From Pseudomonadales bacterium (GTDB taxonomy: Bacteria; Pseudomonadota; Gammaproteobacteria; Pseudomonadales; Azotimanducaceae), in the NCBI GenBank assembly GCA_047518105.1, contig JAKZRQ010000134.1, positions 1 to 61,784 of the forward strand: 61,784 nt of DNA, written 5' to 3'. The translations under genes were made by a program, and so were the position numbers. Below are positions 1-42,100 of the stretch, one piece after another (position 1 is the first letter of the stretch; every line of letters begins with the position of its first letter). A model generated the notes under the pieces. It did not search any database and was not told the DNA's origin. It saw only the letters and a list, made by a program, of their open reading frames with translations.

Positions 1-98
1 TCCCTTCGATCAGTCTCTGCTGACGGCGGGTGTACCTTGGATCAGTGCCCTGCTGACGGTGGGTGTCCCTTCGATCAGTCTGCCCAGTGCTGCGGTCA
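1..98. repeat. ~33-bp tandem direct repeat, about three units, running off the left window edge
   Basis: Units read directly: cccttcgatcagtctctgctgacggcgggtgta / ccttggatcagtgccctgctgacggtgggtgtc / ccttcgatcagtctgcccagtgctgcggtcacc. The third unit degenerates into the stop codon (96-98) of minus-strand CDS 96..1688. Confidence 0.7.
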
Positions 99-1688
99 CC
101 TCCGGCTGGTCAGGTAGGTGAGTCGCCCGTCATGTACCTGCAACCCTCTCACAAAGTCGCCAGTCCCACAGCCACCATCGGCCTCGACTCGAAACTCGGG
201 TCCGCCGTGGACTCCGACCTTCGAGAGATCAAACGCGTCATAGAAACCGCGCGAGTGCTGACCTCGGCCAACCACATGGTAGAGCATCAATCGGTTGCCG
301 CGAAATCCAAATCCGCCGATCCCGCCGACATCGTTCACGGTCGCGTCCGGTCCCAGGACACTCCGAAGCCTAGCCAGAGCCGCCACGTCGTAGGCATGGC
401 CGATGTGGTCCACGCGTCTTCCCGGATACGTCTCACCCCGAAGGTGCGGTGGCACTTGAAGGCCAAGATCCTCGGTCGTCGGAAACGCGAACACGATATC
501 GCCCGTGGCAGCGTCGAGAGCCCACACGCGACCGCCATCCTGAAGGGCCAGCCAGTCACCGTTGTTGGACAGGACCATGCTGCCCAAGAGACGACCGGGG
601 ATCGTCCGGGACCACTGATCCGTGCGTTCTGGTCCTCCAGATTCGCCATAGCGCTGGTATCGTGTCTTGACGACCTCGAACTCCTGTCTGTCCGTCGTGC
701 GCCGATCAACAAGGTAGTACGCGACTTCGCTGGACTCGAAATAGACCCGATCCTTGACTGGCCGAAGCGCTCCACCCCTGAGGATGCGTTCCACACGCAC
801 CTGCTGCGCATCGAGAAGGTCCGCCGATGCACCCGGGCGGCGGGGAATGTCGACTGACTCAATCCTGACGACGCGGGCAGGTCGCCCGTCGGTCGGATAG
901 AACCAGTAGTCGCCCCTTGGTGTGTCCTCCAGTTCCTGTGGTGGCCAGAACATGACCTCCGCACCGTCGGTCGAATAGAACGAGACGTAGGGAACCTCGT
1001 AGGCATCAGGCGAACTGAACTCGATGCCCAGATCGTAGTGATGTTCCTCCCCGGCGTCGAGATCCCGCACGACCAGTCGTGATGCCTCCCCCGCCAAGGG
1101 CTCGATCACGTAGAAGGACGAACCGTCCGACGCGACGCCGAACCGCCACGCTTTGTCGTTTTCATAGACGAGTTGTCCGTCCCTATAGATGTGGACGGGC
1201 TCCGGCGCCTCGGGCGGACGAAACACCTTTGAATTCAACCTCAGGTCAGCGAGACCGGCGACCACTGTGCCGTCGGCACGCTTTCCTATCCGGTAGTCGT
1301 TCGGGTCGAAGGGCAGTTCGCCGCCAAACACCGTTCCCCCGCCGTCGAGTACTGCGAACCGGGCACCGGCCTCGCCGGAAAGGACATAGATGGCCGAGTC
1401 GTCGGCATTCCCCAAGCCAGCCGTGAAGTTGCAGTCAGGATTATCGATCACCTCCTCGGGTGAGAACTCCCATGATGGTGACCGTGAGATCACCGGTTCG
1501 ACTGCTTCGATCGCCAATTCAGGCCCCGACGTCGTGCCCACAGCCGGGACTACAGACTCGGGAGCGGAATCCAACGGATCACGGTCCCCGTCCCTTGGCC
1601 ACAGCAGCATGGCCATCGTAGCAGCGACGCATACGACAGCCGCTGCCACGACGCAATCGTGACGACGGGATATTCCCGGTCCGCTCAT
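96..1688 (-). CDS. hypothetical N-terminally membrane-anchored protein (530 aa), possible beta-propeller-like exported domain
   Basis: Long ORF with protein-like composition. Its ATG lies 2 nt after the stop of the M23 ORF. It has an N-terminal hydrophobic helix (VVAAAVVCVAATMAMLLW) and blade-like strings such as RVWALDAATGDIVFAF. I recognise no named family. Confidence 0.7.
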   Translation of the reverse strand: MSGPGISRRHDCVVAAAVVCVAATMAMLLWPRDGDRDPLDSAPESVVPAVGTTSGPELAIEAVEPVISRSPSWEFSPEEVIDNPDCNFTAGLGNADDSAIYVLSGEAGARFAVLDGGGTVFGGELPFDPNDYRIGKRADGTVVAGLADLRLNSKVFRPPEAPEPVHIYRDGQLVYENDKAWRFGVASDGSSFYVIEPLAGEASRLVVRDLDAGEEHHYDLGIEFSSPDAYEVPYVSFYSTDGAEVMFWPPQELEDTPRGDYWFYPTDGRPARVVRIESVDIPRRPGASADLLDAQQVRVERILRGGALRPVKDRVYFESSEVAYYLVDRRTTDRQEFEVVKTRYQRYGESGGPERTDQWSRTIPGRLLGSMVLSNNGDWLALQDGGRVWALDAATGDIVFAFPTTEDLGLQVPPHLRGETYPGRRVDHIGHAYDVAALARLRSVLGPDATVNDVGGIGGFGFRGNRLMLYHVVGRGQHSRGFYDAFDLSKVGVHGGPEFRVEADGGCGTGDFVRGLQVHDGRLTYLTSRR

Positions 1689-1690
1689 TG

Positions 1691-2420
1691 TTAGCAGTCG
1701 TACTCTTGCGTCGGATCCAAATATTGATCGCTAGTTCCCACGTCGTAGTGGAGGTGAGGACGTGTTGAGGCACCGGTGTCATTCACGTCCCCAAGATATT
1801 CACCCACCGAAACCTGATCTCTCAAGCGTACCTGAAGGTTTGGTAGAAGGTGGAGATAGCGGGCGGTCTTGCCGCTCTCGTAGTTGATTTGGACGAAGTT
1901 CCCGCGCGTCAGGGGTCCGGCCCAGTGCTTCTGGCCCTCCGCGAATCCACTGTATGCGGAAACTACAGTACCGTTCTCAGCGGCATACACGGGGGTACCG
2001 GTCGATGCTCCGATATCGATACCTTGTGCGGGCCTTTGTCACGTGGTTCTTGGAAAGCACTCGTGATTGGTGCACTCCAGTTCCCCGTAAGTCCCTGCCA
2101 ACAGTCCAACACGCCGTCCGCGTCGATGTCCCTGGGTGGATTCGGCGACACGTTGGCGAAGTAGCCATCCACTTCCTCGCCCAACGAGTCGAGGTACCCA
2201 TCCTCGACCTCGATCTGGTTCGGGCGGTGATTGATACTGCCGCGTCCGAGGCATGTCGCTCCGTCAGGACACGAACCGCCAGCGTACACATATATACACT
2301 CAACGTTCGGTGGGCACTCCTCCTCTTCGTCGGCCAACGCCCGCCACGGAACCGTCGTGCCGGAGAGGCAGCACGCGACTGTGACAAGAGCGACCGCGAG
2401 AATCCGCGCGCGAGTGTCTC
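1691..2420 (-). pseudogene. M23 (LytM-type) metallopeptidase, frameshifted and without an in-frame canonical start
   Basis: The 3' frame (ORF 1691..1990, open upstream to ~2021) reads GIDIGASTGTPVYAAENGTVV...RPHLHYDV, giving HxxxD and HxH signatures. The 5' part (lipobox-like LVTVAC, Cys-rich linker, ...PRDKGPHK) is in the frame of ORF 1963..2682. The junction CACAAGGTATCGAT needs one extra G to read HKGIDIG. No ATG/GTG/TTG precedes the signal-like segment. Confidence 0.7.
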
Positions 2421-2449
2421 CGCCTGCCCTCGGCGCATGGTTGGAAGCG

Positions 2450-2682
2450 CTATCCCCCCCCGCTCGTCGATCGCCTCGAGCACCCTCGGCGGCGACAGCG
2501 GCAGGTCGTCGATGCGGAACCCTAGCTGGTCCCGGACTGCGTTCGACAGCGCCGCCAACGGGGCCACGATGGGGGTCTCGCCGACGCCGCGCACGCCGTA
2601 GTTGGAACGGGTTCGGCACCTTGCCGCAGATCGGTAGGTCCACGTAGAGCTTGCGCGCCAGTTCATCGATGGCCGACGCCAT
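2450..2682 (-). pseudogene. decayed fragment of a Mo-hydroxylase large-subunit gene (C-terminal ~55 codons joined to a short AIDELARKL piece)
   Basis: 2450-2617 aligns by eye with 5542-5715 (…NPF..YGVRGVGETPIVAPLAALSNAVRDQLGFRIDDLPLSPPRVLEAIDE.GG) with scattered substitutions. 2618-2682 encodes MASAIDELARKLYVDLP, resembling residues encoded near 6630-6660. Confidence 0.8.
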
Positions 2683-2888
2683 GTGGTGGGTTTCCCAATC
2701 GAGTCCGTGTTGTGGGTGTCCCTAATCGGGTGTCCAGTCAAATCCGCTGTCAATCCGTTTGGAATAGTGGATGTCCCTATCGTACCCCCTGGGCGATGTA
2801 GTACCCCCGTCGAGGAGCGGGCGACCGGAGCGGCAGCGACGGGCGGCCGTCGCTCGACGGGAGGCGGATGGGTTGGGCCAGAAGCGAA

Positions 2889-3305
2889 GCGATGGGGCGC
2901 TCGCAGGCCTGGATCACGGCCAAGCCGCGGCCGGCCCCCTCGGGTACCGGCGCCTTGTAGTTCGGGTGCTCCTTGGCGGCCTCCAGGCACGCGCGCAGGC
3001 CGATGGCCGGGAAGCGCGGGCCGTACGGCGCCACGGTGCCCTCGCCCGCCGCGTTCTTGAGCCGGAGGGATGGGTGATCCATGTCCAGCTTGCGCGCCAG
3101 TTCGTCGATGGCGCACTCCATGGCGTGCATCGACTGCGGCGCACCCGGGGCGCGGTAGGCGCAGACCTTGGGCTTGTTGACCAGCACGTCGTTGCCCTCG
3201 ATCACCAGGTTCGGCACCTCGTAGGGCGCCAGCACGGACATGCAGCCGGGGCCGATGGGGTACCGGGAAAGGCGCCGGCCTCATAGGCGAGCCACGCGGA
3301 GGCGA
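2889..3305 (-). pseudogene. decayed internal fragment of a Mo-hydroxylase large-subunit gene with a ~250-bp internal deletion
   Basis: ORF 2777..3241 reads MSVLAPYEVPNLVIEGNDVLVNKPKVCAYRAPGAPQSMHAMECAIDELARKLDMD...GPRFPAIGLRACL.AAKEHPNY. This is nearly identical to the intact gene (6470-6850). It then jumps to AVIQACE (= 6190-6222). Confidence 0.85.
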
Positions 3306-3492
3306 CGTTCTTGTCGGAGTGGCTTCAGTGGGACCACACGGCGGACTTGCCTGTCCTGGTTCACTGCCGTGCCCGAAATCACCGCGAGATCACTTGTGGG
3401 ACGCCAATCGCGTGTGTCCCGAACTCCCCTCGCTCCTCATCCACCGCTCCGAACTCCCCGCTAGCCACCAAGTCCTGCGGCAAATCGGCAAA

Positions 3493-4590
3493 TCAGATGC
3501 CTTGACCGCTCACGGGCGTCCAACCTCGAGACACAATCCACTCCGCCCTGGCAGACGCCTGGCTAAGTACCTCAGGCGAGTGGCGACTCAAGTCCAACCG
3601 AATGCGATGCGCTGGTATGCCTTGCCGTAACGCGTGCTTGGCCCCAGCGATTTCGTACGCTAGCCGGTCGTGTGAGCCGCCGTGATACCTCCTTGCGAGG
3701 TTTGCGTAAGCCCGTGCAACATCGAACTGAGCCAACGCGTTGATGTGAGCCGCGTCACCCAAATAGTAGGCTTGGGCCCACTCGCTACCAAGTCGAGCCG
3801 CAGCAGCCATCAATTCGATTGTCTGTCCATGGGGAAAGCGTCTCTCGTTCTGCGAGTCAGCCGATGGGGATCTCAACGCTCCGATGAAGACCAAGGCTTC
3901 AGCAGGTACAGTTCGACACTTGGATAATCTCCACGATAGCCAGTACCACTGATCTTCGAGATCCTCTCGACGACTGTAGTAGTCCGCTTGGTCCGATGCT
4001 TCCCTATCGAGTCTGGCGATCTCGAAATCCCACTCGCGCTCCAAGTCCGTGATGTCCCTCGTCGCATCGTCCCGAAGTACTGCAATGCATGCCTGATGGA
4101 GCACTGCCAACTTCGCAATCTCGTCTGCAGCGCAGCTTGACTTCAAGTCGTTGCGGATTTGACCATTGGATACGTGACACTCTGGATTGCTCAGTGCTCT
4201 TGCGCTAGCGACTCGTGTGTCCATCGGACTCGAGAACACTTCTCGCCACGTGAGTGGCTTCGAAACGGCGAGAATCGGTTCAGGTCGCCACCTGTCCGCA
4301 GGCGCGTCGAGATACCGAAGTTCCAATGCGGCGAAGCATTCAGGCATCCAATCAATGACTGAGTGACAGAAGTCGGTGATATCCACCTGGTGCTCACCCG
4401 TGTTTTCCTCAATTGGCAGCTCTTTAGACCGTGGTGTTGGTATTTGGTCCGAAACTTGCTGGCCTACCGGCACCTCGGGAGGCGGAGATTCCCGGCGTTC
4501 CTCGAGACACTCAACCGTGAACCATGCCGCGAGGAGCAGAACAACGAACAGCGACGGCCAACCAATCCACTTTACGACTGTGGTAGACAA
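3493..4590 (-). CDS. hypothetical N-terminally membrane-anchored, Cys-containing helical protein (365 aa), partner of the HExxH protein
   Basis: TTG start at 4588-4590 is preceded by GGGAG. It overlaps the stop of the upstream CDS by 19 nt. TM helix WPSLFVVLLLAAWF is present. Low-GC coding sequence. No family recognised. Confidence 0.7.
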   Translation of the reverse strand: MSTTVVKWIGWPSLFVVLLLAAWFTVECLEERRESPPPEVPVGQQVSDQIPTPRSKELPIEENTGEHQVDITDFCHSVIDWMPECFAALELRYLDAPADRWRPEPILAVSKPLTWREVFSSPMDTRVASARALSNPECHVSNGQIRNDLKSSCAADEIAKLAVLHQACIAVLRDDATRDITDLEREWDFEIARLDREASDQADYYSRREDLEDQWYWLSWRLSKCRTVPAEALVFIGALRSPSADSQNERRFPHGQTIELMAAAARLGSEWAQAYYLGDAAHINALAQFDVARAYANLARRYHGGSHDRLAYEIAGAKHALRQGIPAHRIRLDLSRHSPEVLSQASARAEWIVSRGWTPVSGQGI

Positions 4591-5480
4591 TTGGGGCTCC
4601 CGTCTCGATCATGTCGATACGAAGGATGCTGGTAGCCGTAGACGCCAAACGTATCGTAGTAGTGGATGTTCGCTCGACGATCAGTATGCTGTTCATCCGA
4701 TGTTCCGCAGCGACACTGCACCATGTCGAGTACGTGGTAGGCTTCATGTATCAACGTACCAGCCAATACCTGCCAATGCGATATTGGGATGCCTGCATTT
4801 CGCCAACCGGTAACTTCCGTGTCTATGGCTTCCTTGTCTATCACCATGTGAATATCACCGGTTGTGGGATCCTTGTAGGCATGACCTAAGGCACCTTTCG
4901 CATCACCGTAGCCTGTGTGGATTATTGGGCGCATATTGACCGGGAGGGAAGCCACCTCAGAGTCTAGTAACGAAAACACACTCCGATGGCCAGAGGTCAC
5001 GGGATTGGCGGCACAGGACAGGACGGTTTCGGAATCAGCGGCAAAGTCTCCGAGTGATGATGAATCTGTCGCCTCACTCTCGTCCTCGCCGTCCGAAACG
5101 CACGCTCCACCGCAGGCAACACCCCCGCCTCCACCGAAACTGTAGTACTCCGGACAGTCCTCGGGGCGCGAGACAACCAGCCCCGTGTAGGGACAGACGA
5201 CAGTTGTCGGTGTTGGGACGGGGGCAGGTTCCGGCACGGGTGTCCCGGTGACGACTACCTCCTCCACCGGAGTGTAGTCCTCCCAGCGCTCGTCGTTGTT
5301 CCAACAGTCCCCCGCGCGACTGACCAATTCAGCATCGTTCCATGGGTCGGGAGATTGTTGCCAGTGTTCACAGATGCCGCGGCAAATGGTGTTCTCCTCC
5401 AGGGCCTCACATGCTTCATGACCCTCGGTCTGGGCCTCCGACACACCCGCCGACAATACCCACGATGCAGCCAGCGCCAA
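4572..5480 (-). CDS. exported Cys-rich protein with C-terminal HExxH (zincin-like) motif (302 aa as drawn, start uncertain)
   Basis: Contains LIHEAYHVLD. It has 14 Cys, a Pro-rich linker PVPEPAPVPTPTT and a signal-like N-terminus LALAASWVLSAGVSEA. The only in-frame start is TTG at 5480 with no obvious SD. The frame stays open upstream into the Mo-subunit 3' end. Confidence 0.65.
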   Translation of the reverse strand: MALAASWVLSAGVSEAQTEGHEACEALEENTICRGICEHWQQSPDPWNDAELVSRAGDCWNNDERWEDYTPVEEVVVTGTPVPEPAPVPTPTTVVCPYTGLVVSRPEDCPEYYSFGGGGGVACGGACVSDGEDESEATDSSSLGDFAADSETVLSCAANPVTSGHRSVFSLLDSEVASLPVNMRPIIHTGYGDAKGALGHAYKDPTTGDIHMVIDKEAIDTEVTGWRNAGIPISHWQVLAGTLIHEAYHVLDMVQCRCGTSDEQHTDRRANIHYYDTFGVYGYQHPSYRHDRDGSPNCLPQS

Positions 5481-5541
5481 GGCGGCGTAGCTGCCGCTCG
5501 ACCCGAAGCGATGTCGCCGACCGGGAGGGTCGGAAGGAGAG

Positions 5542-7773
5542 CTACTCGCCCCCCCCCTGCTCGTCGATCGCCTCGAGCACCCTCGGCGGTGACAGAGGCA
5601 GGTCGTCGATGCGGAACCCGAGCTGGTCGCGGACCGCGTTGGACAGCGCCGCCAACGGGGCCACGATGGGGGTCTCGCCGACGCCGCGCACGCCGTAGGG
5701 GTGGAACGGGTTCGGCACTTCGATGATCTGGGTGTCGATCATCGGCATGTCCGAGGCCATCGGCACCCGGTAGTCGAGGAAGCCGGGGTTCTCCATGACG
5801 CCGTTGGCGTCGTAGATGTGCTCCTCGTTCAGTGCCCAGCCGAGGCCCTGCACTGCGCCGCCCTGCATCTGGCCTTCGACGTAGGACGGGTGGATGGCCC
5901 GGCCGGCATCCTGGATCGCGGTGAAGCTCAGGATGTCAACCTTGCCAGTCTCCGGGTCCACCTTGGCGTCCGTGAAGTTGCAGGAGAACGATGCGCCTGC
6001 GCCTTGGGCGTTCAGGCTCGCCCGACCGAGAAGCGGCCCGCCCGTCCGGCCAGCGCGACGGGCGATGTCGGCCAGCGACAGCGGCTTCACGTCGGCGTTG
6101 ACGCCCGGCTTCGGTACCGCTTCGCCGTCGTCCCAGTCCACCTGCTCTTCGTCGAGGTCCCAGGTCAGCGCCGCGCGCTGCTTGCATTGGGCGATGATGT
6201 CCTCGCAGGCTTGGATCACCGCCATGCCGGTGGCGAACGTGGTGCGGCTGCCACCGGTGACGTTGCAGAAGCCGGTCGCCTCGGTGTCGCCGACGTGGGC
6301 CTTGATCCGCTCGTAGGGTACGCCCAAGGTCTCGGCCGCCATCAACGCCATGGAGGCGCGGGAACCGCCGATGTCGGGGCTGCCTTCCATCACCGTCACC
6401 ATGCCGTCTTCGGCGATCCGCACTTCGGCGCTCGACTGCATGCCGATGTTGAACCAGAAACCGACGGCGACGCCGCGGCCCGCGCCCTCGGGGATGGGTT
6501 TGCTGTAGTTCGGGTGCTCCTTGGCGGCGTTGAGACACGCGCGCAGACCGATGGCCGGGAAGCGTGGCCCGTAGGGCGCGACCGTGCCCTCGCCGGCGGC
6601 GTTCTTCAGCCGGAGATCGATGGGATCCATGTCGAGCTTGCGCGCCAGTTCGTCGATGGCGCACTCCATGGCATGCATGGACTGCGGCGCGCCGGGGGCG
6701 CGGTAGGCGCAGACCTTGGGCTTGTTGACCAGAACGTCGTTGCCTTCGATGACCAGATTCGGCACTTCGTAGGGTGCCAGCACGGACATGCAACCCGGGC
6801 CGATGGGCGCGCCGGGGAAGGCACCGGCCTCGTAGGCGAGCCAGGCTTGGGCCGCCGTGAACGTGCCGTCGTTCCTGGCGCCGATCTTCACCTTGCACCA
6901 GGTGGCGGAAGTCGGACCGGTGGCCCGGAAGACCTCTTCCCGGCTCATCGTCATCTTCACCGGCCGGCCGGCCATCTGCGACATCTTCACCGCCAACGGT
7001 TCCAGGTAGACGATGGTCTTGCCGCCGAAACCGCCGCCGATCTCGGACGGAATGACCTTGATGTTGCCGACGCTCTGTCCCAGAACCTGGGCGGTCATGG
7101 AACGCACGTCGAAGTGGCCTTGGGTGCAGCACCAGACGGTGGCCTTGCCGTCCTCGTTGACCGTCGCCGTACACGCATGGGGTTCGATGTAGCCCTGGTG
7201 GGCGGTGGGTACCCGGTGTTCGCTCTCGACGATCACGTCCGCTTCGGCGAACCCGGCGTCGATATCGCCGCGCTCGAAGCGCTGGGTGGCGGCGACATTG
7301 CTCGCTGGCTTCGATGCGTCGCCATTGGTGTGCTGGGTCTCGTTGACCAGCGTGGCGCCTTCCGCCATCGCTTGATCCAGGGACAGAACCGGTTCGAGAA
7401 CCTCGTATTCGACATCGATGAGATCGAGCGCCGCTTCCGCCTGGTGCAGGGTCTTCGCGGCTACCGCGGCTACCGCGTGGCCGTGGTAGAGCACCTTGTC
7501 GCGGGCCATGACGTTCTTGCCGAGGTCGCTCACGCCCTCGCCCGGGAAATCCGCTCCGGATACAGCGGCCATCACGCCGTCGGCCGCCCGTGCGCGGCTC
7601 AGGTCCACGCTCTTGACCCGGGCGTGGGCGTGGGGGCTGCGCAACACCTTGCCATGCAGCATGTTCGGCAAATTGAGATCCGCGCCGAATGCTGCCCGGC
7701 CGGTTACCTTGTCGATGCCATCGGGTCGTACCGGCCGAGTGCCGATTGCCTTGAAATCTACCGCTTCTGCCAC
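5542..7773 (-). CDS. xanthine dehydrogenase family molybdopterin-binding large subunit (aldehyde oxidoreductase-like, 743 aa)
   Basis: GTG at 7771-7773 lies 7 nt after AAGGAG. Sequence reads VAEAVDFKAIGTRPVRPDGIDKVTGRAAFGADL...GGGFGGK...CAYRAPGAPQ...GVGETPIVAP. The rest of the 1133-aa ORF upstream is out-of-frame read-through. Confidence 0.9.
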   Translation of the reverse strand: MAEAVDFKAIGTRPVRPDGIDKVTGRAAFGADLNLPNMLHGKVLRSPHAHARVKSVDLSRARAADGVMAAVSGADFPGEGVSDLGKNVMARDKVLYHGHAVAAVAAKTLHQAEAALDLIDVEYEVLEPVLSLDQAMAEGATLVNETQHTNGDASKPASNVAATQRFERGDIDAGFAEADVIVESEHRVPTAHQGYIEPHACTATVNEDGKATVWCCTQGHFDVRSMTAQVLGQSVGNIKVIPSEIGGGFGGKTIVYLEPLAVKMSQMAGRPVKMTMSREEVFRATGPTSATWCKVKIGARNDGTFTAAQAWLAYEAGAFPGAPIGPGCMSVLAPYEVPNLVIEGNDVLVNKPKVCAYRAPGAPQSMHAMECAIDELARKLDMDPIDLRLKNAAGEGTVAPYGPRFPAIGLRACLNAAKEHPNYSKPIPEGAGRGVAVGFWFNIGMQSSAEVRIAEDGMVTVMEGSPDIGGSRASMALMAAETLGVPYERIKAHVGDTEATGFCNVTGGSRTTFATGMAVIQACEDIIAQCKQRAALTWDLDEEQVDWDDGEAVPKPGVNADVKPLSLADIARRAGRTGGPLLGRASLNAQGAGASFSCNFTDAKVDPETGKVDILSFTAIQDAGRAIHPSYVEGQMQGGAVQGLGWALNEEHIYDANGVMENPGFLDYRVPMASDMPMIDTQIIEVPNPFHPYGVRGVGETPIVAPLAALSNAVRDQLGFRIDDLPLSPPRVLEAIDEQGGGE

Positions 7774-8315: not shown

Positions 8316-8358
8316 CTTCGTTCCAATCTCCTTGTGAGCCGTGCTCAAAACAGCCGCC

Positions 8359-8424
8359 AGTGCGCCAAGGCGCCGAGTCCGCTGAAGCGCGAGTGCGCCA
8401 AGGCGCCAAGTGCGCTAAAGCGCG
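8359..8424. repeat. 33-bp tandem duplication at the FAD-subunit / 2Fe-2S-subunit junction
   Basis: agtgcgccaaggcgccgagtccgctgaagcgcg is followed by agtgcgccaaggcgccaagtgcgctaaagcgcg. The second unit contains the stop codon of the FAD-subunit gene. Confidence 0.8.
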
Positions 8425-9293
8425 AGCGCACGGTCGCGGGCGATCGCGGCGGCCCGCTTGGTGAGCACGCCGACCACCTTCCTGCGGTATTCGACGGTGC
8501 CGCGCTTGTCGGTAATGGGTTTCGCCATCGCGCTCGACGCGTCCGCCGCGGCGGCCAAGGCCGCGTCGTCCACCTTGGTACCGACGAGCGCCGCCGCTGC
8601 ATCGGGTACGATCAGGGCGGTGATGGCGACCGCGCCGATGCACACCTTGGCGGCGGTGCAGATGCCGGATTCGTCCAGCGTCAGCGAGACGCCGGCGCCG
8701 CAGACGGCGATATCCATCTCGGTGCGTGGAATGAAACGCAGATAGGCGTCCCGGGTACGGCCCTTGGGACGCGGAATCCTGAGGCCCACCAGGAACTCCG
8801 TGGGCTCGAGAATGTTGGTGCCGACCCCGGTGACGAATTCCTCCGTGGATACTTCCCTGTTGCCGCCCGGCGAAGCGACGACGCAAACGGCGCCGCAAGC
8901 GATGAGAGCCGGAATGGTGTCGCCGGCGGGGGACGAGTTGCACAGGTTGCCGCCGATGGTGGCGCGACCCTGAATCTGGGTGGAGCCGATCAGGTCGGCC
9001 GCCTCGATGAGGCCCGGCAGGATGCTCTTCAACTCGTCGTTCTCGTTCAGCACCGCGGACGCGATCGCCGCCCCGATGAACACTTCGTCGGCGCCAATGC
9101 GCAACGCGTTGGCCTCCGCCACGTGTTTGACGTCAACGAACGTACGCGGTCCCTTGTCGGTCGACCGCATCTGCACCATGACATCGGTGCCGCCGGCCAG
9201 AATCTGCGTGCGATTGCCCGCGGACGTCTCGTGCGCGAGCGTGGCCAGTGCTTCGTCGACAGTCGTCGGTGCTTTGTAGGCGAATGCCCCCAT
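8415..9293 (-). CDS. FAD-binding medium subunit of the Mo-hydroxylase
   Basis: Reads MGAFAYKAPTTVDEALATLA...ILAGGTDVMVQM...GSTQIQGRATIGGNLCNSSPAGD. SD GGAG lies upstream. Confidence 0.9.
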   Translation of the reverse strand: MGAFAYKAPTTVDEALATLAHETSAGNRTQILAGGTDVMVQMRSTDKGPRTFVDVKHVAEANALRIGADEVFIGAAIASAVLNENDELKSILPGLIEAADLIGSTQIQGRATIGGNLCNSSPAGDTIPALIACGAVCVVASPGGNREVSTEEFVTGVGTNILEPTEFLVGLRIPRPKGRTRDAYLRFIPRTEMDIAVCGAGVSLTLDESGICTAAKVCIGAVAITALIVPDAAAALVGTKVDDAALAAAADASSAMAKPITDKRGTVEYRRKVVGVLTKRAAAIARDRALAL

Positions 9294-12173: not shown

Positions 12174-12802
12174 GTCGAATCCAGGAAGCGCGTCAGGGCC
12201 ACGGCGATGTCCTGTTGAACCTTGGCCAGTTCCCTACTGGCGTCGATCCTGACGATGCGGGATTGTTCATTGGCGCGGCGCAGGTAGGCGGCACGTACCC
12301 GCTCGAAGAAGGCACGGCGCTCGCGCTCGAAGCGATCCAGGCCACGGTCGGCGATCCGCGCCATGGCATCGTCCACTGGGGCGTCGAGATAGAGCGTGAG
12401 ATCGGGCCAGCAGTGGCCGTGGACCATGGCCGCGAGGCGTTCGACCGCCTCCCCGGCGACGCCGCGTCCGCCGACCTGGTAGGCAAAGGTCGAGTCCGTG
12501 AAGCGTTCGCACAGCACCCAGCGGCCGGCGCGGAGGCTGGGTTCGATCACCCTGGCGAAATGCTGGGCGCGGGCGGCGAAGACCAGGAGCGTCTCGGCGA
12601 GCGGGTCCACGGCTTCGTCCCGCTCCATCAGCAGGACGGAGCGGATCTCCTCCGCCAGCGGAGTCCCGCCCGGTTCCCGGGTGGCCACAACGTCGTGGCC
12701 GCAGCTCCGGAGGGTGGCCAGGACGAAGTCGACGTTCGTGCTCTTGCCCGCCCCTTCGCCGCCTTCGATGGTGATGAAACGACCTCGCGACACGCGCATC
12801 AC
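12170..12802 (-). CDS. tmk: thymidylate kinase
   Basis: Reads FITIEGGEGAGKST...TREPGGTPLAEEIR. Confidence 0.9.
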   Translation of the reverse strand: MMRVSRGRFITIEGGEGAGKSTNVDFVLATLRSCGHDVVATREPGGTPLAEEIRSVLLMERDEAVDPLAETLLVFAARAQHFARVIEPSLRAGRWVLCERFTDSTFAYQVGGRGVAGEAVERLAAMVHGHCWPDLTLYLDAPVDDAMARIADRGLDRFERERRAFFERVRAAYLRRANEQSRIVRIDASRELAKVQQDIAVALTRFLDST

Positions 12803-17281: not shown

Positions 17282-18277
17282 TTACCGCGTCGCGGCGGCG
17301 ATCCGATCCACCGACCCGGTTGCCAATGCGTCCATGGCCTGGGCCACGGCCCTTCCGAAGCCGTAGCGGTCGGCGCCACCGTGGCTCTTTACCACCACCC
17401 CGGCCAAGCCCAATAGGCTCGCGCCGTTGTAGCCTTGCGGATTGTACGCATCCCGCACGCGGTTCAGCCGCTTGCGCAGCATCGCCTTCGCCAATGCCAT
17501 CCCCCCGGAGGCGTCCGCGAGTTCCCGGCCGAGCAGGTAGCGCGCCATGTGCGCCGCCCCTTCCGCCGCCTTGAGCGCGATGTTGCCGGCGAAACCGTCG
17601 GTAACGACGATGTCGGTGCTTGCCTCGAACAACCGGTCGGGTTCGACGAATCCGGCGTAGCGAATTCGGTCGTCCTGCTCCAGCAGACGCGCAGCTGCCC
17701 GTACCGATTGGGGACCCTTGCTAACCTCCGAACCGATGTTGAGCAACCCCACGCTCGGCATTGGCCCTCCTGGGGGGGCGCGCGCGCGGGCGGGAGAATG
17801 GCCGCGACCAACCGCCGCTGCGGCGCCCATGAGCGCGAACTGGTGCAATTGCGCAGCGTCCGAGCCGATGTTGGCGCCGAGATCGAGCATTTGGAACACG
17901 CCGCCGTCCGCCGCACCCAAGGTCTTGATGATTGCCGGTCGGCGTATCCCGGGAAGCATGCCGATCAAGTGCCGCGACAATGCCACCATGGCACCCGTGC
18001 TGCCGGCGCTGACGACGGCATCCACTGCACCGCAGGCCAACGCGCCGATGGCAGCGCGCATGGACGAATCGGTCTGCCCGCGCAAGGTGGCGCGCAAGGA
18101 GTCGTCCACTTCGAGCCGCCGGGGCGCATCGACGACCTCGTGCGGCGAGTCCCGGACCAGCGGCGCGATGACGTTGGCGTCGCCGAAGAAAGTCAGTTCC
18201 ACGTGCGTGGGCCGTACGGACGCGAAGGCATCCAAGGCCCCTTGTACTAGAACCGTTGACGGGGCGTCTCCGCCCAA
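17282..18277 (-). CDS. plsX: phosphate acyltransferase PlsX (5' end uncertain)
   Basis: Reads GGD.AP..V..GA...SAGSTGA...LLNIGSE...TDGFAGNIALK. Conserved residues IRVAVDT extend upstream of the only canonical start (TTG 18277). Confidence 0.85.
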   Translation of the reverse strand: MGGDAPSTVLVQGALDAFASVRPTHVELTFFGDANVIAPLVRDSPHEVVDAPRRLEVDDSLRATLRGQTDSSMRAAIGALACGAVDAVVSAGSTGAMVALSRHLIGMLPGIRRPAIIKTLGAADGGVFQMLDLGANIGSDAAQLHQFALMGAAAAVGRGHSPARARAPPGGPMPSVGLLNIGSEVSKGPQSVRAAARLLEQDDRIRYAGFVEPDRLFEASTDIVVTDGFAGNIALKAAEGAAHMARYLLGRELADASGGMALAKAMLRKRLNRVRDAYNPQGYNGASLLGLAGVVVKSHGGADRYGFGRAVAQAMDALATGSVDRIAAATR

Positions 18278-20124: not shown

Positions 20125-20335
20125 ATGTTGCAGCGATATCAAAAGTAAGACCGAAATCCCGTGTGTCCCAATCAGTCAATGTTGCAGCGATATCAAACGT
20201 GAGACGAAATCCCGTGTGTCCCACTCTCATGCGCCAATATCAAACGTGAGACGAAATCCCGTGTGTCCCACTCTCACTGTCCACTCTCACTGTGGAGACG
20301 AAATCCCGTGTGTCCCACTCTCACACTCTCATGCG
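20125..20335. repeat. tandem array, four units of ~47-53 bp sharing a perfect 19-nt core cgaaatcccgtgtgtccca
   Basis: Core copies at 20152-20170, 20205-20223, 20252-20270 and 20299-20317. The flanking parts of the units are also related (atgttgcagcgatatcaaa.gt.aga; actctca). Confidence 0.85.
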
Positions 20336-24365: not shown

Positions 24366-25252
<887 letters not shown>

Positions 25253-38950: not shown

Positions 38951-39121
38951 ATTCAAGAACAAATTTGATAGCCTCGATGTTGACTATGGAAGGTGTTGTT
39001 CCGGCGTTGCGCGCCGAGTCGAGGCGCCATTGATCGGCAGCGGTTTCAAAGTCGAGCAACGAGTAACGATCCGCTTGTTCCTACCGGTGGTCGTCGACAA
39101 GTGCAGAAGGAGCGCAAACGA

Positions 39122-42100
39122 ATGCTCCCATACGCTCTCCAGGGTATTGGCCCCGGAAAATCCGCCGTCTGGGCAGGTCTGTTTGCCCTGTTGTCGCCTT
39201 CCTTGGCAACCGCAAATGCCGGAAACGACCAGATTGTCCTGATCGTGTCGACTGCGGTCGGTGCCTCGGATTCGGCCATTGCACGCGCTCCTTGTTGGGA
39301 TGAGGCACCGCCGGACGCCAAGGTGTTGTGCCGTCCGGAGACCCCGGAGCACGCCGGAACCATCGGTATCCGGCTGACGACCAGCAATGGCCAACCGGCC
39401 AAGGGACGGATCACGGCGGACTACGCGACCTTCGAGATCACGGCCACCTCCCCTGGGGACTACATCCACCGGCAGAGTATGCTGGTCATCGAGGATGGCG
39501 AGGTCGGAAGCCAAATAGAAGAAATCACGCTCCTGGACGACAACGTTGCCGAGGAGACCGAGACGTTCGGAGTGCGAGTCACCAACTTCGTGGCGCCTCC
39601 GCAATACAGCCTGACTTACGATCACAGCATAGAGACGATCCTCGACAACGACCGTGAAACGACCTTTTTCGACCTCTCGGCAAGTCCCTCGATCATCTCG
39701 GAGGATGAGGGAGCGACCTCGGTCGAGGTCACGGCCACGGCGGACGGCAATGTCCTCGACACACAAACGACGATAACGGTTTCCGTATCGGGTAGCGGTG
39801 CCAACATCGCGGTGGCCTTCGAGCCGGTTTCGGACTTCACGATCACCGTACCTGCAAACGAGCGTTCGGGGTCGGCGAGGTTCACGCTGACGCCGGTGGA
39901 CGACGAGGTCCTCCAAGTAAGCGAAACGGTGGTTCTGGCCGGCACGGTACCCGGCTTGGCGGTGAACGGGACCACGTTGCGCTTGGTCGACCATGAGGTC
40001 TTGACGTTCGCCGTGGCAGACGCGTCCGGTCCGGAAGACGGGCCCCCTTTGGCGTTTGAGGTGTCGCTCGGCGTGGAAGTGGTCTTGCCCACAGAGGTGG
40101 TATACCAAACGGAGGCCGGGACAGCTACGTACTTCTGGGACTACGAGGTAACTGTCGGCGTGTTGACCTTCGCGCCCGGCGAGAAGTCGAAGACAGTCAA
40201 CGTGCGGTTGATCGACGATTCGCTGTACGAGGACGACGAGAAGTTCGACTTGGCTCTCCTCTACACCTCCATCGGCGGTATCTCCTACCATCGTTTGCAA
40301 GTCAGCGGAACCGGGACCATCATCGACGACGACAAACCGCCCGTGATCCAGGCCGTCCATGCCTCGGCCAACGAGGGCGACCAACTCCTGTTCGAGGTGA
40401 AACTGGAGGGGGAGAGCGAGTTGCCGGCGCTGGTGGAATACGCCACCTCGGACGGGACTGCAACGGAAGGCGACGACTATCTTCCGGCGGCGGGCACACT
40501 GACTTTCTCACCGGGCGAGCAGTCGCACACGATCACGGTTTCGACGATCAACGACGACATTGTGGAAGGACGCGAGGACGTTGCGCTAACCCTGCTCCGC
40601 GCGGAAGACGCGACCCTGGACCCTTCCTCCCGCGAAGCGGTGGGAACGATCATCGACGACGACACCGTGTCGCTGACGGTAGCCGACGCGGCGGCGGTAG
40701 AGGATGGGGCCGCTCTGGCCTTTCGCGTCACCCTCTCGCCGTCGAGCCCGCTGGCGGTGACGGCAGACTTCGCAACATCGGACACCACTGCAATCGCAGG
40801 CGAAGACTACGAGGCGGCGTCGGGCACGCTGACCTTCCCGGCGGGAACGACTTCGGCAACGGTTCTCGTGGAGGTGCTGGACGACAGCATCTACGAAGAA
40901 GAAGAGACGTTGACCCTCGCGTTTTCCAACGCGGCGAACGCCGACGCGCCCGACAAGCCCGCAACGGGAACGATACGCGACGACGACGACCCACCCGATA
41001 TCGTCGTCGACCCGGCCTCCGCCCTCGAAGGCGGAGGCCCGCTCGCGTTCACGGTACGCCTCACCGAGACGAGCGGAGCACAAGCGACAGTTTCCTACCG
41101 AACCTCGCCGGGCTCGGCTTCGGCCGGTTCGGACTACACGCCGGTCTCCGGAAACCTGACGTTCGAGCCCGGCGATACCAGGCGCACCATCGAGGTGGCG
41201 CTGCTCGACGACGACGTGGACGAGGCGGACGAGACCTTTTCCATGACCTTGACCGCGGCGAACGGCGCGACCTTGGGGAGATCGACCGCGCAGGGGACGA
41301 TTCGCGACGACGATCTACCCGCCGTCTCCGTCCGCGCCCTGACGGCATCGGTGGTGGAAGGCGCACCTGCGACGTTCGAGGTCACCGTCGCGGGCATCGC
41401 GGCACCCGCCACCGGAGTCCGGGTGCGGCTGACCGGGATTGGCGGCTTCCTGGCATCGGGCCCGACAACCAGGACCATCGCGTTCGTCGCGGGCAGCAAG
41501 ACGGCGCGCCTGGTTGCGCCGACCGAAGACGACGCCCGGGACGAACCGGACGGTGAGGTAACGGCGACGCTGGTGGCAGGTTCCGGCTACCGGATCGGAA
41601 CTCCCTCGAGCGCTACGGCTGCGGTGCTGGACAATGACCAGCGCGCGGTGCTCGTTCAGCCGACGGCGCTGGCCGTGGTGGAAGGCGCCCAGTCCAGCTA
41701 CACGATCGGCCTCGCCAGCGAACCGTCGGGAGAGGTGACCGTCGCAGTGACGGTCCCGGGAAGCACGGACGTGTCGGCAGCGCCAGCGGCGGTGACCTTC
41801 ACAGCCATCGACTGGCAAACACCGCGCCGCATCACGGTGTCGGCAGCGGAGGATGACGACCTCCTGGCGGATGCACCGGTGCGTCTGGCCCACGCGGCAA
41901 AAGGCGCCGACTACGACGGGACAACCGGCGATTCGGTGACGGTGACGGTCGTGGAGAACGACTCGGCGGCGTTCTGGATTGGCGATGTCTCCGCGGCCGA
42001 GTCCGACGGCATGCTGCGCTTCGTCGTGTCGCTGAGCGTGGCCAGTCCGGCGACGGCGACCGTCGACTACGCCACGATGGACGGCTCGGCAACAGCGGAC

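What the first reader, a model, noticed from the sequence alone, without database searches (positions are those of the whole stretch)
1..5541. Low-GC accessory segment behind the Mo-hydroxylase operon holds two exported-peptidase plus membrane-partner pairs, each following a copy of the large-subunit 3' end
**Seen in sequence.** Everything left of the large-subunit stop (5542) differs in composition. My hand counts of 60-nt samples give 48% G+C (3901-3960) and 53% (4381-4440), against 72% in tmk (12301-12360).

Read on the minus strand, the order is:
- intact large-subunit 3' end;
- Cys-rich exported HExxH protein (5480..4572);
- 365-aa membrane-anchored protein overlapping it by 19 nt (4590..3493);
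- decayed large-subunit fragments (3305..2450);
- M23 peptidase (2420..1691, frameshifted);
- 530-aa membrane-anchored protein after a 2-nt gap (1688..96);
- 33-bp tandem repeats.

So the layout 'large-subunit 3' end / exported peptidase-type protein / tightly coupled anchored partner' occurs twice, once intact and once decaying.

**Inference.** These may be successive generations of an exported hydrolase plus cognate partner (toxin/immunity-like or enzyme/inhibitor) cassette. One may have displaced the other by recombination through the large-subunit 3' end. That resembles displaced orphan modules at polymorphic-toxin loci, but here the anchor is a housekeeping redox gene. No T6SS, CDI, Rhs or integrase gene is in view. 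Apart from the M23 domain, I cannot assign any of the four proteins to a named family.
Basis: partly seen in the sequence, partly recalled or inferred. Interest (0 to 1): 0.7.

Follow-up and report, generated by a model that had tools for sequence, protein, structure and literature searches.

The report
Swappable toxin cassettes behind enzyme gene
Behind a conserved molybdenum-enzyme gene of a sponge-symbiont bacterium sits an array of interchangeable "exported peptidase plus membrane-anchored partner" gene pairs, each preceded by a copy of the enzyme gene's tail, and the peptidase genes have no start codon of their own.

Summary
Window 1-5541 holds two peptidase/partner pairs, each behind a copy of the Mo-hydroxylase large-subunit (LSU) 3' end, and the pairs are compositionally foreign (GC 0.57-0.62 vs 0.66).

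Related long-read sponge-metagenome genomes show this is one state of a hypervariable array. Up to five cassettes follow the intact LSU, in the form [LSU 3' fragment]-[M23 or HExxH exported protein]-[TM-anchored partner]. The closest relative examined has LSU followed directly by core genes.

Pairing is class-specific:
- M23 always sits with a ~510-560-aa membrane-anchored beta-propeller.
- HExxH always sits with a ~320-490-aa anchored protein.

Alleles are only 30-60% identical. Cassettes switch exactly at the LSU fragments, and orphan partners occur without a peptidase gene.

The conserved/variable boundary is a poly-G tract (5-16 G) in the last LSU codons. The peptidase ORFs are under purifying selection, yet lack any ATG/GTG/TTG before their signal peptide. 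In four lineages they lie +1 to the LSU stop. One G fewer gives a 1065-aa LSU-peptidase ORF.

Best reading: a Sec-type polymorphic toxin/immunity array anchored on a metabolic gene. Peptidase translation probably depends on LSU reading. Toxicity, immunity and frame-crossing are all inferred.

The parts
5542..7770 (-). Intact Mo-hydroxylase large subunit (LSU, 742 aa), last gene of a coxM/S/L-like operon. It is the conserved anchor of the array.
   Evidence: Pfam Ald_Xan_dh_C + MoCoBD_1 + MoCoBD_2. dN/dS 0.06-0.10 between lineages. Synteny pepQ-FAD-Fer2-LSU in all relatives.
5549..5557 (-). Poly-G tract (9 G on the coding strand) encoding the GGG of ...EAIDEQGGGE*. It marks the boundary between conserved LSU and the variable cassette.
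   Evidence: G8 or G11 would create a 1065/1066-aa LSU-HExxH ORF. Tracts at equivalent junctions vary from 5 to 16 G.
4572..5546 (-). HExxH exported protein. Order of elements: leader and signal peptide (SSSPSDPPGRRHRFGSSGSYAALALAASWVLSAGVSEA|QTEG), Cys-rich pre-toxin region, CPYTG..PEDCPE motif, Gly linker, then a ~170-aa HEAYH domain. The ORF is +1 relative to LSU, open back through the G tract, with no start codon before TTG 5480.
   Evidence: dN/dS 0.25-0.42. Only 27 relatives among 1.84e9 representative proteins.
3493..4590 (-). 365-aa partner with an N-terminal TM anchor. It has its own TTG start preceded by GGGAG and overlaps the HExxH gene by 19 nt. Presumed immunity protein.
   Evidence: Always follows HExxH-class genes. 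dN/dS 0.23-0.30.
3306..3492 (-). Inter-cassette spacer with short repeats and a GAGTTCGGGACACACGCGA motif shared with spacers of related arrays.
2916..3297 (-). Internal LSU fragment (LSU nt 925-1307). It is 92% identical to the LSU of lineage L001 but 87% to the resident LSU.
   Evidence: The same fragment follows HExxH+partner in L087 and L096.
2454..2683 (-). Composite LSU 3' fragment: a 62-nt cap (LSU nt 1101-1162; window 2623-2683) joined to LSU nt 2053-2220 (window 2454-2619). It ends in an 8-G tract (2454-2461). The same composite precedes other cassettes in L087 and L096.
   Evidence: G-tract length at this junction in seven assemblies: 8, 8, 8, 9, 9, 10, 11.
1691..2453 (-). M23 peptidase cassette gene (allele 'M23c'): leader and signal peptide with no start codon, Cys-rich region, then the M23 domain. 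It is inactivated here by a 1-nt deletion at 2022-2023, inside the HxxxD motif.
   Evidence: Pfam PF01551, 50.8 bits. Reconstruction 100% identical to the intact L087/L004 allele. The frameshift is shared with L092.
96..1688 (-). 530-aa partner of M23c: TM helix, disordered linker, beta-propeller. It has its own ATG 2 nt after the M23 stop and is intact (100% identical to copies in L087, L088 and L089).
   Evidence: AlphaFold2 pLDDT 82. Foldseek finds only generic propellers.
3..80 (-). 33-nt tandem repeats that begin the spacer after the M23c cassette. The window ends inside this repeat.

Best explanation
The segment is one state of a recombination-driven array of Sec-exported polymorphic toxin / immunity cassettes, grafted onto the 3' end of a conserved Mo-hydroxylase large-subunit gene in sponge-associated Gammaproteobacteria.

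**Cassette structure.** Each cassette has two genes.
- An exported peptidase: either an M23 peptidoglycan endopeptidase or a zincin-like HExxH domain behind a shared Cys-rich pre-toxin region.
- A class-specific inner-membrane-anchored periplasmic partner, which I infer neutralises the peptidase.

**How the array changes.** Cassettes are flanked on the left by the LSU 3' end and on the right by a spacer plus the next LSU fragment. Homologous recombination through these repeats adds, deletes, swaps and reorders cassettes within and between lineages. This leaves displaced 'orphan' cassettes, whose peptidase gene often decays while the partner gene stays intact. The window's M23c/P530c pair is an example.

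**How the peptidase is expressed (second-level inference, about 0.4).** The peptidase genes lack their own start codon and lie +1 to the LSU stop, just after a G-rich tract. So they would be translated only by ribosomes that enter from LSU. Two routes are possible:
- a change in G-tract length, at DNA level (phase variation) or by transcriptional slippage;
- a prfB-like +1 frameshift at the LSU stop.

Either route would give a low-level LSU-leader-peptidase precursor. Its internal signal sequence would export and release the peptidase. The partner is made from its own ribosome-binding site.
For: **Shown: array architecture**
- Arrays occur in L001, L002, L003, L006, L087-L089, L093/L097 and L094.
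- L007 has LSU followed directly by the S49/ADH/VanY genes that also lie beyond the L094 array.
- Pairing is class-specific in every cassette seen.
- Alleles are very divergent: 32-59% for M23, 33-60% for P530, 25-30% among P365-type partners.

**Shown: recombination and exchange**
- L096 and the window switch cassettes at the LSU fragment.
- LSU fragments within a lineage share the same composite structure.
- The window's fragment is closer to a foreign LSU than to its own.
- An orphan partner in the L001 genome (L095_500) is 79% identical to the partner at the main locus of L094.
- The peptidase is decayed but the partner intact in the window and in L092.

**Shown: the peptidase ORFs are real genes without starts**
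- M23 domain with HxxxD and HxH motifs.
- HExxH is conserved in divergent C-terminal domains behind a shared pre-toxin region.
- Purifying selection on the peptidase ORFs: dN/dS 0.15-0.42.
- No ATG/GTG/TTG between the G tract and the signal-peptide core at 27 of 28 junctions. The partners have normal starts.
- Relatives elsewhere carry an ordinary Met plus signal peptide, so the hydrophobic segment is a genuine signal peptide.
- The +1 arrangement holds at the intact LSU in WIN/L096, the L087 group, L094 and L097. L002 has an in-frame fusion.
- G8 or G11 gives a 1065/1066-aa ORF.
- G-tract length varies between assemblies, including Illumina scaffolds.

**Background.** Sec-dependent polymorphic toxins with zincin toxin domains and standalone cassettes are an established class (PMC3482391).
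Against: - No toxicity, immunity or binding has been shown. The partners (320-560 aa) are large for immunity proteins.
- No route across the outer membrane or into a target cell is evident. No secretion-system gene was seen among the window ORFs scanned or in the called genes of the related loci.
- HExxH as a peptidase rests on the motif and a low-confidence model only (pLDDT 53; no significant fold or profile match).
- At the intact LSU, the consensus state is out of frame with an LSU stop in 7 of 8 assemblies. A fusion has never been observed on an intact LSU: L002's LSU itself carries a frameshift.
- Lineages L001 and L097 have only 5-6 G.
- The P-site codons do not allow prfB-type re-pairing.
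- One relative (L098) has a conventional GGGGG-N3-GTG start right after the LSU stop. LSU-dependent translation is therefore not universal.
- Homopolymer lengths in long-read assemblies are error-prone.
Confidence: 0.6

Rival explanations
1. An immunity-only ('acquired defence') island. Only the partner genes are expressed. The peptidase ORFs are silent relics that lost their starts, and the locus merely stockpiles protection against neighbours' exported peptidases.
For: - Partners have their own starts and stay intact, while several peptidase genes are frameshifted or disrupted by IS elements.
- An orphan partner exists without a peptidase gene (L095_500).
- The peptidase ORF at the intact LSU is out of frame in most assemblies.
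Against: - The peptidase ORFs are under purifying selection comparable to their partners (dN/dS 0.15-0.42).
- They stay open for 220-325 codons with catalytic motifs intact in most alleles.
- Somebody must make the toxins that the immunities counter, and these loci are the only places where the families were found.
Confidence: 0.15
2. Not antagonism. The pairs are exported cell-wall or host-matrix-remodelling enzymes with membrane-bound regulators or anchors. They sit in a hypervariable surface-variation locus, diversified by host or phage pressure.
For: - M23 proteins are commonly housekeeping murein endopeptidases with membrane regulators (NCBIfam hits to MepM, DipM and ShyA are all far below cut-off).
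- The partners are large beta-propeller or helical proteins rather than small inhibitors.
- No delivery system was found.
Against: - Extreme allelic diversity.
- Multiple paralogous pairs per genome.
- Orphan partners matching other lineages' enzymes.
- A conserved pre-toxin region with variable C-terminal domains.

These are hallmarks of toxin/immunity systems, not of housekeeping enzymes. The closest relative examined lacks the array.
Confidence: 0.15
3. Tandem accretion of integrase-driven integrative elements that target the LSU 3' end and carry a replacement copy of it, as genomic islands do at tRNA genes.
For: - The intact gene is followed by cargo and then by a displaced 3' copy, repeated several times.
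- One ectopic cassette lies about 200 nt downstream of a tRNA-Glu gene.
Against: - No integrase or recombinase lies in or beside any array. Only secondary IS transposases are present.
- The repeated fragments range from about 96 to 1250 nt, with lineage-specific internal deletions rather than a fixed att core.
- Units are only 2.5-3 kb.
Confidence: 0.06
4. An assembly artefact. Repeated LSU tails caused chimeric joins, and homopolymer errors created the apparent frame relations.
For: - The window ends in a repeat at the same base as an Illumina scaffold.
- Homopolymer lengths are error-prone.
Against: - The same architecture appears in several independent long-read contigs, including a circular 4.33-Mb genome, and in Illumina scaffolds from other samples.
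- The window's arrangement is reproduced over 3.3 kb by L096.
- The absence of start codons does not depend on tract length.
Confidence: 0.03

Closest known systems
Polymorphic toxin systems with orphan toxin/immunity arrays (CdiA-CT/CdiI, Rhs, Neisseria MafB; Sec-dependent class of Zhang et al. 2012, PMC3482391; myxobacterial SitA/SitI, PMC5562445)
   Same: - Variable C-terminal toxin domains sit behind a conserved pre-toxin region.
- An immunity-type gene lies immediately downstream.
- Displaced cassettes keep a piece of the conserved upstream coding sequence, which provides homology for swapping.
- Orphan immunity genes occur.
- Toxins with only a signal peptide, and zincin toxin domains, are known members.
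   Different: - The conserved upstream sequence used for recombination is the 3' end of a cytoplasmic metabolic enzyme gene, not the toxin's own trafficking region.
- The toxin ORF is separated from that gene by a stop codon and a frame shift.
- The toxin ORF has no start codon.
- No secretion-system markers are present.
- The partners are unusually large membrane-anchored proteins.
Homopolymeric-tract contingency loci (poly-G phase variation in Neisseria, Haemophilus, Campylobacter; from general knowledge)
   Same: A G run of 7-16 inside coding sequence, with length polymorphism at the same site among strains. A change of one base alters the reading frame.
   Different: The tract sits in the last codons of one gene and would switch between normal termination and read-through into a second, startless gene. 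It does not truncate a single gene. Switching has not been observed directly.
prfB-type programmed +1 ribosomal frameshifting (general knowledge: internal AGGGGG Shine-Dalgarno-like element, CUU UGA C shift site)
   Same: A G-rich SD-like element lies a few nt upstream of an in-frame stop followed by C. The downstream ORF is in the +1 frame and has no initiator.
   Different: There is no slippery P-site codon (GAG, GAC, AAG or GCU instead of CUU). The product would be a fusion of two unrelated proteins. In L097 the G run lies 12 nt from the shift codon.
Integron cassette arrays and recombinase-associated acquired interbacterial defence (rAID) islands of Bacteroidales (general knowledge)
   Same: Arrays of compact, promoterless cassettes separated by conserved repeats and expressed from an upstream resident promoter. 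They stockpile immunity genes with toxin-gene remnants.
   Different: No integrase and no attC-like fixed site. The repeats are fragments of a host gene, so turnover is best explained by homologous recombination.
M23 bacteriolytic enzymes with dedicated self-protection (lysostaphin/Lif, zoocin A/Zif; M23-domain T6SS effectors, e.g. PMC12992299 and PMC10763514 mention such effectors)
   Same: An M23 peptidoglycan endopeptidase domain used against other bacteria, with a linked protection gene.
   Different: Protection in those systems is by cell-wall modification or small periplasmic inhibitors. Here the partner is a TM-anchored beta-propeller of unknown family.

Membership tests
Polymorphic toxin system (Sec-dependent class) | Conserved N-terminal/pre-toxin region joined to alternative, unrelated or highly divergent C-terminal toxin domains | tested here: met
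   The window protein and P0004 share the leader and Cys-rich region (73% identity) but have different HExxH C-terminal domains. P0005, P0043, P0046 and P0047 share CPYTG..PEDCPEF plus a Gly linker with other C-terminal domains. L093 puts M23 behind the same module.
Polymorphic toxin system (Sec-dependent class) | Cognate immunity gene immediately downstream of each toxin | tested here: inconclusive
   The synteny is perfect and class-specific (M23 with P530-type, HExxH with P365-type). Neutralisation itself cannot be tested here.
Polymorphic toxin system (Sec-dependent class) | Downstream orphan cassettes that retain 5' homology to the conserved upstream gene | tested here: met
   Every displaced cassette is preceded by an LSU 3' fragment of 96-1250 nt ending at the LSU stop.
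Polymorphic toxin system (CdiA/Rhs type) | The toxin is the C-terminus of the same polypeptide as the conserved upstream region, which carries trafficking domains | tested here: not met
   LSU ends with a stop in 7 of 8 assemblies. It is a cytoplasmic Moco enzyme subunit with no trafficking domain. In-frame fusions are seen only in L002 and in some orphans.
Peptidase family M23 | Pfam PF01551 above the gathering score, plus HxxxD and HxH zinc ligands | tested here: met
   50.8 bits against a cut-off of 28.7. HKGID and HLH are present in the intact allele. In the window, the 1-nt deletion splits HxxxD.
Zincin metallopeptidase (for the 302-aa protein) | HExxH on a helix following a beta-sheet, plus a significant profile or fold match to a zincin family | tested here: inconclusive
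   HEAYH is conserved as HExxH in paralogues, and the predicted topology is three strands followed by a helix. There is no Pfam, NCBIfam or PDB profile hit, and no Foldseek hit with E<0.5.
Integron / integrase-driven cassette array or integrative island | An adjacent site-specific recombinase and fixed-length recombination sites | tested here: not met
   No integrase in any of about 10 loci, only IS transposases inside some arrays. Fragment lengths are variable.
Homopolymeric-tract phase-variable locus | A tract of 7 or more in coding sequence whose length differs among strains at the same site and sets the reading frame | tested here: met
   Tracts at 5549-5557 (9 G) and 2454-2461 (8 G). The same junction has 8-11 G in seven assemblies, and other junctions 7-16 G. 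The frame consequence was computed. Switching within a population was not testable.
prfB-like programmed +1 frameshift | An SD-like element upstream, a slippery P-site codon, an in-frame poor-context stop, and a +1 ORF without a start | tested here: inconclusive
   The G-rich element, stop+C and a startless +1 ORF are present in WIN, L087, L094 and L097. A slippery codon is absent. The spacing in L097 is unfavourable.

The most novel reading that the evidence does not exclude
A conserved metabolic enzyme gene serves as the translational entry point, and transiently as the N-terminal carrier, for startless exported toxins. A hypermutable or slippery G tract, and/or a +1 frameshift at the enzyme's stop codon, lets a small fraction of ribosomes or cells read from the Mo-hydroxylase large subunit into a signal peptide plus peptidase. 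Toxin output would then be stochastic, tied to expression of the host operon, and kept far below immunity output. Meanwhile the enzyme gene's tail doubles as the homology arm that lets cassettes circulate among co-resident symbiont lineages without any dedicated recombinase.
Probability: 0.3. Interest if true: 0.9.

Novelty: new variant of a known kind. Interest (0 to 1): 0.8.

Why it matters
**A new kind of anchor.** If correct, polymorphic toxin/immunity arrays can be built on an ordinary metabolic gene rather than on a secretion-system component. Searches keyed to Rhs, CdiA, LXG or PAAR markers would miss them.

**Integrase-free cassette exchange.** The locus gives a concrete, sequence-defined example of cassette exchange without an integrase, among uncultured sponge symbionts. 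Competition among such symbionts is hard to study.

**New protein families.** It defines three families with no annotation:
- an HExxH toxin with a Cys-rich pre-toxin module;
- a P365-type anchored partner;
- a P530-type anchored beta-propeller.

**An unusual expression design.** A peptidase gene under selection, yet without a start codon, sits +1 to a stop that follows a variable G tract. This is a testable candidate for phase-variable or recoded expression that fuses two unrelated proteins.

Tried and rejected
- **Family searches.** Pfam, NCBIfam and PADLOC scans of the 302-, 365- and 530-aa proteins and of seven further cassette proteins found nothing beyond M23 and sub-threshold noise.
- **PDB profile searches.** Searches with all three family alignments gave no hit below E 0.1.
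- **Structure of P530.** The AlphaFold2 model is good, but Foldseek finds only generic beta-propellers (TM 0.2-0.4). No specific family could be assigned.
- **Structure of the HExxH protein.** The model is poor, and its weak hits to MATCAP, HtpX, CapP and MMP-11 are non-significant. I do not use them as evidence.
- **Distant donors.** I first read the low amino-acid identity of some LSU fragments (65-72%) as a sign of distant donors. Nucleotide comparison shows 87-96% identity, so the low values come from frameshifts.
- **Spacer motif.** The GGGACACCC motif is clustered in spacers but is not enriched over shuffles window-wide.
- **Promoters and terminators.** Nothing above chance, and no terminator between LSU and the cassette.
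- **Leader codon positions.** A codon-position test across mixed leader subtypes was uninformative. Only qualitative support remains: synonymous third-position changes and a 3-nt indel.
- **Metagenome scans.** Two pattern scans of the JGI metagenome collection, meant to collect more junctions, returned nothing or unrelated chance matches.
- **Literature.** No paper was found that links polymorphic toxins to xanthine-dehydrogenase-family genes.
- **Window versus L087.** dN/dS for the HExxH gene (0.70) is not distinguishable from neutrality. Only the deeper comparisons show constraint.

Full report

Yes.

Sliding GC falls to 0.53-0.58 at 3500-5250 and to 0.59 at 1500-2250, against about 0.65-0.69 elsewhere.

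Against 173 background windows (0.660 +/- 0.020):
- the HExxH gene is at z -4.4, and its C-terminal half at -6.2;
- the 365-aa gene is at -4.8;
- M23 is at -3.6;
- the 530-aa gene is at -2.1.

GC3 is 0.55-0.69 in these genes against 0.87 in the large subunit (LSU). The tetranucleotide distance of 3493-5480 is z +5.6. The LSU fragments themselves are host-like in composition.

The duplicated LSU tail is confirmed:
- 2454-2619 matches LSU nt 2053-2220;
- 2623-2683 matches nt 1101-1162;
- 2916-3297 matches nt 925-1307.

Gene order, the 19-nt overlap, the 2-nt gap and the 33-nt repeats are as stated.

Only the M23 domain has a family hit (PF01551, 50.8 bits). The other three proteins match nothing in Pfam, NCBIfam, PADLOC or PDB profiles.

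**2. What the relatives show**

Homologues of the 302- and 365-aa proteins are extremely rare: 5 each among 5.8e9 clusters, and 27 for a profile among 1.84e9 representatives. The 530-aa family has 31 members at 33-60% identity. Those carrying a source name are annotated as Gammaproteobacteria MAGs.

Every context retrieved shows the same thing: pepQ, then the FAD subunit, the 2Fe-2S subunit and the LSU, followed by an array of units. Each unit is [LSU 3' fragment]-[M23 or HExxH exported protein]-[partner].

The fullest example, L087, reads:

LSU | M23a+P530a | frag | M23b+P530b | frag | M23c+P530c | frag | M23d+P530d | frag | HExxH+P365 | LSU N-terminal fragment.

M23c+P530c is the window's pair, with the partner 100% identical.

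Species representatives with LSU at about 88-91% amino-acid identity over the full length (91-93% over the C-terminal 300 aa) differ:
- L007 has LSU followed directly by S49 peptidase, ADH and VanY. These genes also lie beyond the array in L094. L008, L012 and L013 gave no cassette hits and show no exported ORF after the LSU stop.
- L009 and L011 keep only a short exported ORF after LSU.

The organisms are sponge-associated Gammaproteobacteria, placed by GTDB in Pseudomonadales.

**3. Evidence for cassette exchange by homologous recombination**

- An independent Illumina scaffold, L096, matches the window at 97.8% over 3.3 kb (LSU end, HExxH, P365, LSU fragments). It then switches, exactly at the LSU 3' fragment and G tract, to M23b+P530b instead of M23c+P530c.
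- Cassette order differs between the window (HExxH proximal, M23c distal) and L087 (M23c before HExxH).
- Within a lineage, all fragments share the same composite structure. In the window lineage it is a 62-nt cap (LSU nt 1101-1162) joined to nt 2053-2222 or nt 1519-2222. In the L093 lineage it is nt 568-623 joined to nt 984-2217.
- So conserved scaffolds (86-98% nt identity) flank cassettes whose proteins are only 30-40% identical.
- The window's internal fragment is 92% identical to the LSU of lineage L001 but 87% to its own LSU.
- Synonymous divergence between the window and L087 is 0.024 for LSU, 0.084 for HExxH and 0.042 for P365.
- No integrase is present in any locus. IS elements occur only as secondary insertions.

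**4. Evidence for a toxin/immunity logic (inferred)**

- Pairing is strictly class-specific across very divergent alleles. M23 always sits with a P530-type partner, and HExxH-class proteins with a P365-type partner. The latter are TM-anchored proteins of 320-500 aa (plus one 260-aa copy without an N-terminal anchor), 25-30% identical to each other.
- The exported proteins have a modular, polymorphic-toxin-like build: signal peptide, Cys-rich region, 'PHEPExVxVTG' and 'CPYTGxVVSRPEDCPEF' motifs, a Gly linker, then alternative C-terminal domains. These domains are HEAYH, HELVH, HEFVH and others, or M23 in L093.
- Orphan decay is asymmetric. In the window and in scaffold L092 the M23c gene carries the same 1-nt deletion in its HxxxD motif, while P530c is intact.
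- The genome that holds L001 also has an ectopic cassette about 200 nt after a tRNA-Glu gene. It carries two P365-type genes. One of them (L095_500) is 79% identical to the partner of the main-locus HExxH-class gene of lineage L094, and no gene was called between it and the preceding partner gene; the 630-nt gap was not checked for peptidase remnants.
- P530 is predicted with confidence (pLDDT 82) as TM helix, disordered linker, then beta-propeller. It resembles no specific family.
- The HExxH model is poor, and no fold match is significant.
- Sec-dependent polymorphic toxins with zincin domains and standalone cassettes are an established class (PMC3482391).

**5. The unnoticed feature: a G tract and startless peptidase genes**

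Aligning 29 LSU-tail junctions shows where the conserved/variable boundary lies. It is a poly-G tract in the last LSU codons (...EAIDEQ-GGG-E/D-stop), 5-16 G long.

In the window these tracts are at 5549-5557 (9 G) and 2454-2461 (8 G). They are two of only three G/C runs of 7 or more in 61.8 kb. Relatives without arrays have at most 5 G there.

At the same junction (M23c), seven independent assemblies, three of them Illumina, have 8, 8, 8, 9, 9, 10 and 11 G. Other orphan junctions range from 7 to 16 G. At the intact LSU the length is constant within an allele: 9 and 9; 7, 7, 7 and 7.

In every cassette type of this clade, the peptidase frame is open back through the tract. It contains no ATG, GTG or TTG before the hydrophobic core of its signal peptide. 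This holds at 27 of 28 junctions; in the exception, a G-to-A change inside the tract creates an ATG.

The window's TTG 5480 lies inside the hydrophobic core and has no Shine-Dalgarno sequence. P365 has GGGAG, and LSU has AAGGAGA. Gene callers accordingly give erratic lengths for the peptidases (89-336 aa) and stable ones for the partners.

Yet the peptidase ORFs are under purifying selection:

| Gene | dN/dS |
|---|---|
| HExxH | 0.25-0.42 |
| P365 | 0.23-0.30 |
| M23 | 0.15 |
| P530 | 0.14 |
| LSU | 0.06-0.10 |

Family members elsewhere have ordinary starts.
- The ectopic L095 copy has an ATG 13 codons upstream of a residual 'GCGATCGACGAGCAGGGGGG', giving a full signal peptide.
- L098 has LSU-stop-GGGGG-TCT-GTG, a conventional SD plus start.
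- Several distant homologues begin with Met plus a signal peptide.

So the hydrophobic segment is a real signal peptide, and the leader after the tract is coding.

At the intact LSU, the peptidase frame is +1 to LSU in four lineages: the window and L096, the L087 group, L094 and L097. The LSU stop lies one or two codons after the tract (five in L097) and is followed by C. L002 (8 G) is an in-frame fusion, although its LSU has a frameshift further upstream. L001 has an extra T in the leader.

Removing one G, or adding two, in the window yields a 1065/1066-aa LSU-HExxH ORF.

**6. How it most likely works**

*Shown:*
- an LSU-anchored array of class-paired cassettes;
- exchange at the LSU fragments;
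- peptidase ORFs that are startless but under selection, placed +1 behind a variable G tract;
- partner genes that can be translated independently.

*Inferred, moderate confidence:* the pairs are exported toxins and cognate periplasmic immunity proteins. Turnover is RecA-type recombination between LSU-derived repeats, including unequal crossover or excision and re-integration of circles, with exchange between co-resident lineages.

*Inferred, lower confidence:* peptidase synthesis requires ribosomes arriving from LSU, by one of three routes:
- (a) a change in DNA tract length (phase variation);
- (b) transcriptional slippage;
- (c) a prfB-like +1 shift at the stop, helped by the SD-like G run.

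The resulting LSU-leader-peptidase chain would use the internal signal sequence as a signal anchor and be cleaved after AxA. That would give rare or low-level toxin against constitutive immunity.

*Against this:*
- the consensus state is out of frame;
- two lineages have short tracts;
- no slippery codon is present;
- L098 uses a normal start;
- no outer-membrane export or delivery route is known.

**7. Comparison and novelty**

The closest known kind is the polymorphic toxin system with orphan cassettes: CDI, Rhs, MafB, and the Sec-only class that includes SitA-like lipoprotein toxins.

It shares with them variable C-terminal domains, downstream immunity-type genes, and orphans that retain upstream homology.

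It differs in four ways:
- the homology arm is the tail of a cytoplasmic Mo-hydroxylase gene;
- toxin and anchor gene are separated by a stop and a frame shift;
- the toxin gene has no start codon;
- no trafficking domain beyond a signal peptide is present.

It is not an integron or an integrative island, since it has no recombinase and no fixed site. No paper linking such toxins to xanthine-dehydrogenase-family genes was found.

I rate it a new variant of a known kind, with three unannotated protein families and an unusual, testable expression design.

**8. Caveats**

- All function is inferred from sequence.
- Homopolymer lengths may contain assembly errors, although Illumina scaffolds agree that they vary.
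- The window probably ends at an assembly break, so the distal part of its array is unseen.
- The independence of lineages for the +1 pattern is limited, because leaders and LSU tails are homologous. There are three leader types, so chance is about 0.04.

Noticed in passing
window 8355-8426: A 33-nt tandem repeat (2.2 copies, 89% match) lies between the FAD-subunit and 2Fe-2S-subunit genes of the Mo-hydroxylase operon. Its sequence is unrelated to the 33-nt repeats at 3-80.
   Followed up: no
window 20136-20324: A 47-nt tandem repeat (3.9 copies). Each unit contains GGGACACAC (minus strand), the same core motif that clusters in the inter-cassette spacers (2688-2777, 3412, 28-69). This may be a shared small repeat family.
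   Followed up: partly
window 38993-45868: A 2291-aa ORF with 11 Calx-beta domains (E 3e-192), including an internal 336-nt repeat at 43085-43725. It looks like a giant adhesin-type protein.
   Followed up: partly
window 24406-24481: A 9-nt tandem repeat (CTTCGCCGC, 8.4 copies).
   Followed up: no
window 17772-17778: The only other G/C homopolymer of 7 or more in the window (G7). Its context was not examined.
   Followed up: no
L095 9655-14281 (same 4.33-Mb genome as L001): An ectopic cassette about 200 nt downstream of tRNA-Glu. It keeps only the last ~20 nt of LSU plus G6, and has its own ATG and a full signal peptide. It is followed by two P365-family genes (433 and 500 aa), the second 79% identical to the partner at the main locus of lineage L094.
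   Followed up: partly
L098 449-3003: In another lineage, the LSU fragment ends ...AIDEH-TAA and is followed by GGGGG-TCT-GTG. Here the G run looks like a Shine-Dalgarno sequence for a conventional start of the homologous exported protein.
   Followed up: partly
L009 4381-4724 and L011 10894-11277: These array-poor relatives still have a short exported ORF (signal peptide plus ~70-110 aa) directly after LSU. It is in a shifted frame, has no start codon and no long G run, and is followed by a conserved minus-strand ORF of 277-298 aa of unknown function.
   Followed up: partly
L002 11313-11907; L093 15654-17464; L002 13076-14272: The distal ends of arrays carry toxin-antitoxin or abortive-infection genes (PhdYeFM/ParE, AbiEi/AbiEii, AAA_14/DUF4143). 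The locus therefore seems to act as a general variable or defence island.
   Followed up: no
L087 17784-19427 (also in L003, L004, L006): After the last cassette lies a large decayed LSU fragment covering the N-terminal and central parts (aa 1-133 and 232-598) but lacking the 3' end. This may be the remnant of an older LSU copy, or of an inversion or duplication event.
   Followed up: no
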